Shown: piece by piece, positions 13,629 to 14,601 of the stretch
How the letters are laid out: the number at the start of each line of letters is the position of its first letter
Numbering within the stretch: position 1 is the stretch's first letter
Source of the DNA: Candidatus Babeliales bacterium
GTDB lineage: Bacteria; Babelota; Babeliae; Babelales; JANWKD01
Direction: 5' to 3'
Length of the DNA stretch: 64,000 bases
Assembly: GCA_963701665.1 (NCBI GenBank)
Contig: OY969622.1
Coordinates: 184,658 to 248,657 of the forward strand
The notes under the pieces: generated by a model
The model's database searches: none
Seen by the model: only the letters and a program-made list of their open reading frames with translations
What the model was told of the DNA's origin: nothing
Program-made: the position numbers and the translations under genes

Positions 13629-13641
13629 TGATTGTGTTAAA

Positions 13642-13647
13642 AGTCAA
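13642..13647 (-). promoter_or_regulatory. Outward-facing -35 hexamer (TTGACT) in the IS110 right end
   Basis: In a circular junction (RE-CT-LE) it would lie 17 nt upstream of TATGTT in the left end. Confidence 0.5.
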
Positions 13648-13659
13648 ATATTTTTATAG

Positions 13660-14601
13660 TCAAGCTCTACATAACTCGCCCCTTTTTAATAGAGCATTGG
13701 CAATTATAATGAGCTTATGCATAATAGCAACGATAGCTACTTTAAAAGGTTTTTTAGCATCCATTAATCGCTGGTAAAATTCCCTTAAAGGAAGATGGTG
13801 CTTTACCGTGGTCAATGCACACATATAAAGTGCTTTACGAGGAATATGCCTGCCATGCTTAATAAATTTTTTGCCTTTGTAATTGCCGCTTTCATTGTCA
13901 TAAGGACAGACACCAATTAGAGCGGATATTTTTTTGTCGCTTAACTGCCCAAGCTCAGGGACAAAAGAAAGTAATGTTGCAGCTGTAGCTTTACCGATTC
14001 CTGGGATTGATTCCAAAATGTTTGATTTTGTATGTAACTCTTCATCATCTTTGACTAAATCCTGTATTCGAGACTCAATTGATTTAATTTCACTTTCTAA
14101 GAGTGCAATAAATCTTTTTATATCAGGAACATATAATACGTGAGAAGGATGTTTAAGTCGTGTTTTCTCAGCAGCTAAAAATTTTACTAAATCATTTTTA
14201 CGGTTAACTAGAGCTTGTAGTTTATGCTGATTCTCACTTTTGTTAACAATCTCGTAACTAGGAGAATTTTTAGAAGCGAATTCAGCAATTTTTTTAGCAT
14301 CAATTTTATCGGTTTTACTTTTACAGCCAGTAGCTATAATAAAAGCTTTTATCCTTCGTGGATCAACGATCCAAAGTGAATATCGGTTCTTTTTGAGTAA
14401 TTGGGCAAGTAATTGTTCATAGCCACCTGTTGCTTCACAGGCAATTTGTGTAACTTGATAGTGAGCTAATTCCTTGATTATGTTCTGTATGCCAACTTCT
14501 GAGTTAGCTACTTTAAAGAATTTTCCTATAGGATACACATAAATATCGAGATTATTTTTTGAAATATCGACACCTACATATACTTCTGCTATGTTTTTCA
14601 T
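13660..14601 (-). CDS. IS110-family DEDD transposase/recombinase
   Basis: N-terminal RuvC-like DEDD domain (VGVDISK, CEATGGYE, KTDKIDA) and a C-terminal IS116/IS110/IS902 Tnp domain (SIPGIGKATAATLL). GAGG RBS upstream. Confidence 0.9.
   Translation of the reverse strand: MKNIAEVYVGVDISKNNLDIYVYPIGKFFKVANSEVGIQNIIKELAHYQVTQIACEATGGYEQLLAQLLKKNRYSLWIVDPRRIKAFIIATGCKSKTDKIDAKKIAEFASKNSPSYEIVNKSENQHKLQALVNRKNDLVKFLAAEKTRLKHPSHVLYVPDIKRFIALLESEIKSIESRIQDLVKDDEELHTKSNILESIPGIGKATAATLLSFVPELGQLSDKKISALIGVCPYDNESGNYKGKKFIKHGRHIPRKALYMCALTTVKHHLPLREFYQRLMDAKKPFKVAIVAIMHKLIIIANALLKRGELCRA

What the first reader, a model, noticed from the sequence alone, without database searches (positions are those of the whole stretch)
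13629..13660. A sigma70-like promoter is split between the two IS110 ends and would assemble only on circularisation
On the IS strand the right end terminates ...TATTTGACTTTTAACACAATCA-CT and the left end begins CT-TGTATGTTAAAAC. Joining the ends through the single CT core gives TTGACT - 17 nt - TATGTT. That is a 5/6 match to the -35 consensus, optimal spacing, and a 4/6 match to the -10 consensus.

The assembled promoter points into the guide-RNA region and the recombinase gene. Junction promoters of this kind are known for IS110-family and other circle-forming IS. Here it would couple guide-RNA and recombinase expression to the excised state.
Basis: partly seen in the sequence, partly recalled or inferred. 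Interest (0 to 1): 0.6.

Follow-up and report, generated by a model that had tools for sequence, protein, structure and literature searches.

The report
Split junction promoter of an IS110 element
A small mobile element carries half of a promoter at each end, so the promoter for its guide RNA and recombinase is complete only when the element is cut out as a circle; the reading holds up, but this arrangement is already known for its relatives such as IS621.

Summary
An intact 1,197-bp IS110-family element lies on the minus strand at 13629-14825, flanked on both sides by the core dinucleotide CT. An uninterrupted copy of its target, a roughly 97-nt palindromic repeat at 33049-33145, fixes both ends to the base. 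Joining the right end, CT and the left end gives TTGACT, 17 nt, TATGTT. With an approximate sigma-70 matrix this scores 11.7 bits, which only 7 of 639,700 registers in the window reach. The integrated left end scores 2.1 bits. Nine distinct relatives (45-82% recombinase identity) keep both hexamers in the same register. Conservation runs from the first T of the -35 hexamer to left-end nt 12 and collapses outside that block. The register is identical to the RNA-seq-supported junction promoter of IS621, which predicts a start near 14811. Downstream lies a genuine bridge RNA whose guides match the target and donor. The mechanism is published for IS621, ISEc11 and ISPpu10, so this is a new member of a known kind and of low to moderate interest.

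The parts
13629..14825 (-). Complete IS110-family element (1,197 bp), flanked by the core dinucleotide CT at 14826-14827 and 13627-13628
   Evidence: Fixed by the empty paralogous target at 33049-33145. Independent insertions of the same IS diverge at the same bases. Relatives are 1,184-1,221 bp and all are CT-flanked.
13642..13647 (-). -35 half of the junction promoter, TTGACT, in the right end; it starts 19 nt before the core C
   Evidence: It is TTGACT in 8 of the 10 subfamily elements, with TTGCTT in L006 and TTGATT in L012. It is in the same register as TTGCAG of IS621.
13629..13647 (-). Conserved terminal block of the right end: -35 hexamer plus 13-nt spacer, including the left donor sequence ACAATCA
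   Evidence: Information content is 1.2-2 bits (mostly 2) from position -19 to -1. Just upstream it is mostly below about 1.2 bits, apart from isolated columns in an A/T-rich tract.
14818..14823 (-). -10 half of the junction promoter, TATGTT, at left-end nt 3-8; it overlaps the right donor sequence TGTATG
   Evidence: IS621 has TATTAT at the same left-end positions.
14811..14811 (-). Predicted transcription start (left-end nt 15), inferred by register from IS621, whose bridge RNA begins at left-end nt 15
   Evidence: IS621 LE TGTATTATCCCTCC|AGUGCAGAG from Supplementary Tables 1 and 2 of PMC11208160. This is an inference, not a measurement.
14602..14811 (-). Bridge RNA region of the left end
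   Evidence: The consensus fold of 10 relatives has two stem-loops with large internal loops, and 11 pairs show compensatory changes. The single-sequence fold has z = -2.7.
14678..14743 (-). Target-binding loop. GCTCCT (14718-14723) equals the left target plus core. TCCTGAG (14695-14701) is the reverse complement of core plus right target.
   Evidence: Cognate guide-target identity is 6.7 and 6.8 of 9, against 4.6 and 4.5 for non-cognate pairs across 10 elements.
14606..14667 (-). Donor-binding loop. ACAATCACT (14652-14660) equals the right-end tip plus core. The basal stem ACCTC/GAGGT contains the ribosome-binding site of the recombinase gene.
   Evidence: The guide changes together with the right-end tip in L007/L009 (C to T) and L012 (A to G).
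13660..14601 (-). Recombinase gene, 313 aa
   Evidence: Pfam DEDD_Tnp_IS110 at 8.9e-22 and Transposase_20 at 1.1e-17. It is 33% identical to the IS621 recombinase; D12, E56, D98, D101 and S238 align with identical residues of IS621.
14826..14914 (-). Left part of the target, a palindromic repeat element ending ...GCTC-CT
13618..13628 (-). Right part of the same split repeat element (CT-CAGGATGAC)
33049..33145 (+). Intact, unoccupied paralogue of the target repeat, which serves as the empty site. It has one mismatch to the bridge RNA right target guide (CTCATGA against CTCAGGA).
   Evidence: It folds as a long hairpin, -40.8 kcal/mol, z = -4.6.

Best explanation
This is the junction promoter (Pjunc) of an intact IS110-type bridge-recombinase element. 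The host is a small AT-rich genome, probably Dependentiae/Babeliales. That assignment is an inference from the taxonomy of the closest IS relatives.

In the chromosome the element is linear.
- Its right end carries only a -35 hexamer, TTGACT, preceded by an A/T-rich tract.
- Its left end carries only a -10 hexamer, TATGTT.
- The target repeat to the left offers no -35.

Recombination of the two ends at the shared CT core gives a circle, or a tandem junction. The hexamers then lie 17 nt apart. RNA polymerase with the primary sigma factor should start near left-end nt 15 (window 14811). It would transcribe the roughly 200-nt bridge RNA and then the recombinase gene.

The bridge RNA pairs with the donor junction (ACAATCA-CT-TGTAT) and with the target GCTC-CT-CAGGA in a palindromic repeat. 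The circle therefore produces what it needs to reinsert.

Shown here: boundaries, hexamers, their register, their conservation, the lack of a -35 in the linear context, the bridge RNA anatomy and the guide matches. Inferred: circle formation, promoter activity and the start site.
For: Element and boundaries:
- Pfam domains.
- DEDD and Ser residues aligned to IS621.
- Empty paralogous site.
- Independent insertions of the same IS, always at GCTC-CT-C(A/G)GGATGAC.

Promoter quality:
- The junction scores 11.7 bits, reached by 7 of 639,700 registers in the window.
- The same -10 paired with the chromosomal flank scores 2.1 bits.
- The tool scan finds no promoter-like site on the IS strand in the left end or its upstream flank.

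Conservation:
- 8 of the 10 subfamily elements (45-82% aa identity to the window's recombinase) have TTGACT, and the other two have TTGCTT or TTGATT.
- Nine have TATGTT and one TATGAT. Spacing is 17, or 16 in L009.
- Information content is high from RE -19 to LE +12 and falls outside that block.
- Groups at 33-35% identity (Dehalococcoidia, Nitrospirales, Opitutales) keep TTGACA, TTGACT or TTGCTT and TATGTT or TAGGTT in the same register, although the spacer sequence differs.

Validated homologue:
- IS621 has TTGCAG, 17 nt, TATTAT in the identical register, and its bridge RNA starts at LE nt 15.
- Small RNA-seq showed a peak over the LE starting from this predicted promoter. Cutting the donor to 22 bp removed the -35 box (PMC11208160).

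Host promoter use:
- 4 of the 9 best matrix sites in the window lie 36-58 nt upstream of long same-strand ORFs.

Downstream product:
- Bridge RNA fold with 11 compensatory pairs.
- Guides co-vary with targets.
Against: - No transcription data exist for this element or its host.
- No RE-LE junction was found in assembled contigs. All 33 matches to the 18-nt junction core in the metagenome collection were chance or unrelated hits. None occurred in the 132 fetched loci.
- The -10 hexamer and most of the spacer overlap the donor recognition sequence, so their conservation could reflect recombination rather than transcription.
- The whole right-end block, not only the -35 hexamer, is conserved within the subfamily.
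- TATGTT is only 4/6.
- Junction promoters are not universal in the family. ISPpu9 lacks one (PMC12288879), and a Verrucomicrobiae group here has no -35 in register.
Confidence: 0.8

Rival explanations
1. The conserved ends are recombination sites only. [quoted passage not shown]
For: - The -10 hexamer overlaps the right donor TGTATG, and the spacer contains the left donor ACAATCA, which matches the donor-binding loop.
- The ends also contain an inverted repeat, TTTTAACA...TGTTAAAA.
- Within the subfamily the whole 19-nt right-end block is conserved, not only the hexamer.
Against: - In IS621 a 22-bp donor sufficed as the DNA substrate when the bridge RNA was supplied from another promoter, and that donor lacks the -35 box. 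The positions of the -35 are therefore not needed for donor recognition there.
- Across distant groups the spacer diverges while TTG at -19 and TAnnnT at LE 3-8 stay.
- Conservation ends exactly at the upstream edge of the -35 hexamer.
- The chance of such a score at a junction-spanning register is about 1e-3.
Confidence: 0.08
2. Expression comes mainly from the integrated element, either by read-through from the co-directional upstream gene (14986-15531, minus strand) or from a native promoter, as in ISPpu9. The junction promoter would add little.
For: - IS621 needs read-through transcription for excision (PMC13626964).
- ISPpu9 uses a native promoter and forms no hybrid promoter.
- The upstream ORF is on the same strand, and no intrinsic terminator was found between it and the IS on that strand.
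Against: - No promoter-like site occurs on the IS strand in the left end or its flank. The best internal match scores 7.4 bits and lies in a variable region.
- The target repeat forms a long hairpin just upstream of the IS, which may hinder read-through.
- This rival explains initiation of excision but not the conserved -35 at the right end. The two models are compatible rather than exclusive.
Confidence: 0.1

Closest known systems
IS621 (E. coli) junction promoter and bridge RNA (Durrant et al. 2024, PMC11208160; Nature 2026, PMC13626964)
   Same: - Same core dinucleotide CT, and the left end also starts TGTAT.
- The -35 starts 19 nt before the core, the spacer is 17 nt, and the -10 is at LE nt 3-8.
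- The bridge RNA lies between the promoter and the recombinase gene, with target- and donor-binding loops.
- The target is a palindromic repeat.
- The DEDD and Ser residues are conserved.
   Different: - Recombinase identity is only 33%.
- The hexamers are TTGACT/TATGTT instead of TTGCAG/TATTAT.
- The right end is far shorter: 31 nt of non-coding sequence against about 105 nt.
- The host is an AT-rich, probably Dependentiae, genome.
- The target is a roughly 97-nt palindromic element, not the E. coli REP.
- There are no expression data.
Pjunc hybrid promoters of other circle-forming IS110/IS1111 elements (ISEc11, ISPpu10), as cited
   Same: The right end gives the -35, the left end gives the -10, and the promoter exists only at the joined ends.
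   Different: Those were shown by reporter fusions or by PCR of circles. Here there is only sequence and comparative evidence.
ISPpu9 (Pseudomonas putida, PMC12288879)
   Same: An IS110-family element inserted in a palindromic repeat, with possible antisense transcription over the 5' region of the recombinase gene.
   Different: ISPpu9 circles form no hybrid promoter and use a native promoter. The element here has a strong junction match and no evident native promoter.

Membership tests
IS110 family (IS110 subgroup) insertion sequence | Recombinase with an N-terminal DEDD RuvC-like domain and a C-terminal Tnp domain with catalytic Ser | tested here: met
   PF01548 at 8.9e-22 and PF02371 at 1.1e-17. 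D12, E56, D98, D101 and S238 align with identical residues of IS621; that these are the IS621 catalytic residues is from my own knowledge. They are invariant in 15 homologues.
IS110 family (IS110 subgroup) insertion sequence | No classical terminal inverted repeats or target duplication; insertion at a short core shared by donor and target | tested here: met
   CT lies on both sides, and the empty site has a single CT. All 17 related insertions are CT-flanked.
IS110 family (IS110 subgroup) insertion sequence | Long non-coding left end upstream of the recombinase gene | tested here: met
   The left end is 224 nt and the right end 31 nt.
Bridge RNA | Two stem-loops with internal loops whose strands match left and right target and left and right donor around the core | tested here: met
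   Consensus structure with 11 compensatory pairs. GCTCCT, TCCTGAG and ACAATCACT match target and donor. Cognate guide-target identity exceeds non-cognate identity.
Bridge RNA | Match to a curated RNA family model | tested here: inconclusive
   The Rfam 15 scan of 13000-15500 gave only chance-level hits with E above 4. No listed hit was a bridge RNA family, so no such model appears to be in the library.
Junction (Pjunc) hybrid promoter | -35 contributed by the right end and -10 by the left end, at sigma-70 spacing across the joined core | tested here: met
   TTGACT, 17 nt, TATGTT; 11.7 bits.
Junction (Pjunc) hybrid promoter | Promoter absent in the integrated (linear) configuration | tested here: met
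   The flank gives TCCCTA at the -35 position, 2.1 bits. The 11 elements compared score 1.1-6.7 bits in linear context. The tool scan found none.
Junction (Pjunc) hybrid promoter | Same register as the experimentally supported IS621 promoter | tested here: met
Junction (Pjunc) hybrid promoter | Existence of the circular or joined form | tested here: inconclusive
   No true RE-LE junction occurs among 33 metagenome matches to the 18-nt junction core or in the 132 fetched loci. Assemblies rarely keep rare circles, so this does not count against the model.
Junction (Pjunc) hybrid promoter | Transcription starting downstream of the junction | not testable with these tools
   Needs 5'-end mapping or a reporter assay.

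The most novel reading that the evidence does not exclude
The donor site (about 11 bp on each side of the core) lies inside the promoter, covering the spacer and the -10 hexamer. Binding of the recombinase-bridge RNA complex to the circle junction would therefore occlude its own promoter.

Two other features noted here could act with this:
- The ribosome-binding site of the recombinase gene is paired in the basal stem of the donor-binding loop.
- A conserved antisense extended -10 motif lies over codons 3-6.

Together these would form a multi-layer negative feedback that limits expression to a short burst after excision. This goes beyond the published 'circle boosts expression' model. None of it was tested here.
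Probability: 0.25. Interest if true: 0.45.

Novelty: new member of a known kind. Interest (0 to 1): 0.25.

Why it matters
- The result shows that the IS621-type split promoter, in an identical register, extends to a distant branch of the family (33% recombinase identity). That branch sits in small AT-rich genomes of probable Dependentiae and in several other phyla. This supports the view that coupling bridge RNA and recombinase expression to the excised state is an old and general feature.
- It adds a compact natural bridge recombinase system. The 1.2-kb element has defined donor, target and guide sequences, and natural guide and target variants are available in nine distinct relatives.
- It does not change the understanding of the mechanism.

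Tried and rejected
- **Rfam scan of the region.** Only chance-level hits, and no bridge RNA family.
- **Search for the circle junction in assembled metagenomes.** The query was the 18-nt core AACACAATYACTTGTATG. All 33 matches lacked TTGACT upstream and TTAAAA downstream, so they are chance or unrelated. No junction was found in any fetched locus either.
- **L114 as orthologue of the window's 19.2-kb site.** I first took the L114 insertion to be the occupied orthologue of that empty repeat copy. blastn showed that only the repeat matches and the flanks differ, so I withdrew this.
- **A promoter wholly inside the left end.** TG-T-TAAAAC at LE nt 5-13 looks like an extended -10. I rejected it because the last position is C, G or A in all relatives, not T, and the scan did not report it.
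- **A second TTGACT overlapping the stop codon (13658-13663).** It pairs only with a poor -10 (5.3 bits) and is not conserved.
- **An outward hybrid promoter from the right-end -35 into the right flank.** The flank offers GGATGA at the -10 position, so there is none (read).
- **Short contigs of about the IS length (L130, L132).** They are collapsed linear copies, not permuted circles.

Full report
**What is at the site**

The minus strand of 13629-14825 holds one complete IS110-family element.
- The 313-aa ORF at 13660-14601 matches DEDD_Tnp_IS110 (8.9e-22) and Transposase_20 (1.1e-17).
- It aligns over its whole length with the IS621 recombinase at 33% identity. D12, E56, D98, D101 and S238 align with identical IS621 residues. 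That these are the IS621 catalytic residues D11, E60, D102, D105 and S241 is from my own knowledge.
- The five residues are invariant in 15 homologues.
- The left end (LE) is 224 nt of non-coding sequence. The right end (RE) is 31 nt.
- There is only one copy in the window.

**Boundaries**

On the IS strand the left junction reads ...CGTCGCTATGCTC-CT-TGTATGTTAAAAC. The right junction reads ...TTTAACACAATCA-CT-CAGGATGACACC.

The flanks are the two parts of a palindromic repeat element. An uninterrupted paralogue lies at 33049-33145 and reads ...CGTCGCTTTGCTC-CT-CATGATGACAC. Removing the IS and one CT restores that structure.

The same IS was found elsewhere.
- Copies with 100% or near-100% protein identity occur at other loci in related genomes and metagenomes (L114, L126-L132).
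- Similarity to the window stops at the repeat element or at the CTs.
- The insertion point is always GCTC-CT-C(A/G)GGATGAC.
- In nine more distant relatives every insertion is also flanked by CT.

**The observation**

Joining RE, one CT and LE gives TTGACT (13647-13642), then 13 nt of RE + CT + TG = 17 nt, then TATGTT (14823-14818).

I scored the junction with an approximate sigma-70 weight matrix. The frequencies come from my own knowledge and the background from the window.
- The junction scores 11.7 bits. Only 7 of 639,700 registers on both strands of the window score as high.
- About 80 registers can place a -35 wholly in the RE and a -10 wholly in the LE, so the chance expectation is about 1e-3.
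- Plain match counting is less strict: 67 sites in 128 kb of strand meet at least 5/6 and 4/6 at spacing 17, which gives about 0.01.
- The host appears to use such promoters. Four of the nine best sites in the window lie 36-58 nt upstream of long same-strand ORFs.

**Is the promoter really split?**

- In the chromosome the -10 faces the target repeat. The hexamer at the -35 position is TCCCTA, and the score falls to 2.1 bits.
- The tool scan of 13400-15100 reports no promoter-like site on the IS strand in the LE or in the flank upstream of it.
- The best internal candidate, TTGTGA-16-TATTGT at 7.4 bits, lies in a part of the LE that varies among relatives.

**Comparative test**

I collected nine further distinct elements with 45-82% recombinase identity to the window's. 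They come from Babeliales/Dependentiae MAGs, marine and other metagenomes, and one Saccharimonadales MAG.

- Counting the window's element, 8 of the 10 have TTGACT. L006 has TTGCTT and L012 has TTGATT.
- Nine have TATGTT and L012 has TATGAT.
- The spacing is 17 in nine and 16 in L009.
- Anchored at the core, information content is 1.2-2 bits (mostly 2) from RE position -19, the first T of the -35 hexamer, to LE nt 12. Outside that block it is mostly below about 1.2 bits, apart from isolated columns in the A/T-rich tract upstream. The conserved block thus spans from the -35 to a few bases before the predicted start.
- An A/T-rich tract lies upstream of the -35.

Multi-copy groups at 33-35% identity were also compared.
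- Two Dehalococcoidia genomes, a Nitrospirales genome and Opitutales genomes have different spacer sequences.
- They keep TTGACA, TTGACT or TTGCTT starting at -19, and TATGTT or TAGGTT at LE nt 3-8.
- A Verrucomicrobiae group has no -35 in that register. The feature is common but not universal.

**Comparison with the validated case**

Supplementary Tables 1 and 2 of Durrant et al. 2024 give the IS621 RE as ...AAAAAACTTGCAGGCCATAACAGTAT. The core is CT and the LE is TGTATTATCCCTCC followed by AGUGCAGAG..., the 5' end of the 177-nt bridge RNA.

- This is TTGCAG, 17 nt, TATTAT in exactly the register found here, with the RNA starting at LE nt 15.
- Small RNA-seq showed a peak over the LE starting from this predicted sigma-70-like promoter.
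- A 22-bp donor lacks the -35 box.
- A 2026 paper adds that low-level read-through transcription of the integrated element supports rare excision. The junction promoter then boosts bridge RNA and recombinase.
- ISPpu10 has a strong hybrid promoter shown by a reporter fusion, whereas ISPpu9 has none.

**What the promoter would drive**

- The LE alignment of ten elements folds into two stem-loops with large internal loops. Of 34 pairs, 11 show compensatory changes.
- In the first loop GCTCCT (14723-14718) equals the left target plus core. TCCTGAG (14701-14695) is the reverse complement of core plus right target.
- In the second loop ACAATCACT (14660-14652) equals the RE tip plus core.
- Across the ten elements, cognate guide-target identity is 6.7 and 6.8 of 9, against 4.6 and 4.5 for non-cognate pairs. 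The donor guide changes together with the RE tip in L007, L009 and L012.
- This is a working bridge RNA by every sequence criterion. Rfam has no match.

**Mechanism, with status of each step**

Shown:
- The element, its ends, the split hexamers and their conservation and register.
- The absence of a -35 in the linear state.
- The bridge RNA and its guides.
- Repeated independent insertions into one repeat family.

Inferred:
- Rare excision, probably fed by read-through from the co-directional gene at 14986-15531, joins the ends at CT.
- The junction promoter fires near 14811.
- Bridge RNA and recombinase rise.
- The circle inserts at GCTC-CT-CAGGA in another copy of the palindromic repeat.

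**Weak points**

- No RNA data are available and no circle junction was found. All 33 metagenome matches to the 18-nt junction core were chance or unrelated hits, and no fetched locus has a junction. Assemblies seldom retain rare circles, so this is uninformative rather than negative.
- The -10 hexamer and the spacer overlap the donor recognition sequence, so their conservation has a second explanation. The -35 is the informative half.

**Verdict**

The mechanism is already published for this family, so this is a new member of a known kind. I put interest at about 0.25.

Noticed in passing
window 33049-33145; 14826-14914 plus 13618-13628; variants near 19186-19264, 32071-32151 and 16327-16384: A family of roughly 97-nt palindromic repeat elements with ends GTCATTCTGAG...CTCAKGATGAC. 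The intact copy folds as a long hairpin with z = -4.6. The IS inserts in its 3' arm in every copy seen, here and in related genomes. There are at least five copies in 64 kb.
   Followed up: partly
window 14567-14595 (+ strand): An antisense promoter-like site, TCGACA-17-TATGTT preceded by TG, lies inside the first codons of the recombinase gene and reads back over the ribosome-binding site and the donor-binding loop. All ten relatives keep TGnTAnnnT on the antisense strand, although the encoded residues vary (I/V/L and S/A/P). This recalls the antisense RNAs Asr9 and Asr10 of ISPpu9 and ISPpu10.
   Followed up: partly
window 14606-14610 and 14663-14667 (- strand): The basal stem of the donor-binding loop, ACCTC/GAGGT, contains the Shine-Dalgarno sequence of the recombinase gene. 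The folded bridge RNA would therefore hide the ribosome-binding site. One relative shows a compensatory change in this stem.
   Followed up: no
L006:2258-2293: The left-end tip plus core (TGTATGTTAAAAATAG-CT) is duplicated in tandem in one Dependentiae relative. It may be a trace of aberrant recombination at a second CT. The same element has the weakest -35 (TTGCTT).
   Followed up: no
L114:2777-3976: A copy of the IS whose recombinase segment is 95% identical is frameshifted (252-aa plus 44-aa ORFs), yet it keeps intact ends including TTGACT. Its target has CGGGA instead of CAGGA, which a G-U pair with the guide would tolerate.
   Followed up: partly
L049, L054, L056-L059 (Verrucomicrobiae MAG): This multi-copy IS110 group keeps the left end TGTATCTT but has no -35-like hexamer in the usual register of the right end. 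The split promoter is therefore not universal in the family, as reported for ISPpu9.
   Followed up: no
L029, right flank of the element: In one Dehalococcoidia copy the right end is followed directly by a second partial copy of the right-end sequence, suggesting a nested or tandem arrangement.
   Followed up: no
host genome (1,337,192-bp contig; not in the window): The longest contig on record for the window's recombinase sequence and for a 69%-identical IS110 paralogue (P0019) has the same length, 1,337,192 bp. The host genome may therefore carry two related bridge recombinase elements.
   Followed up: no
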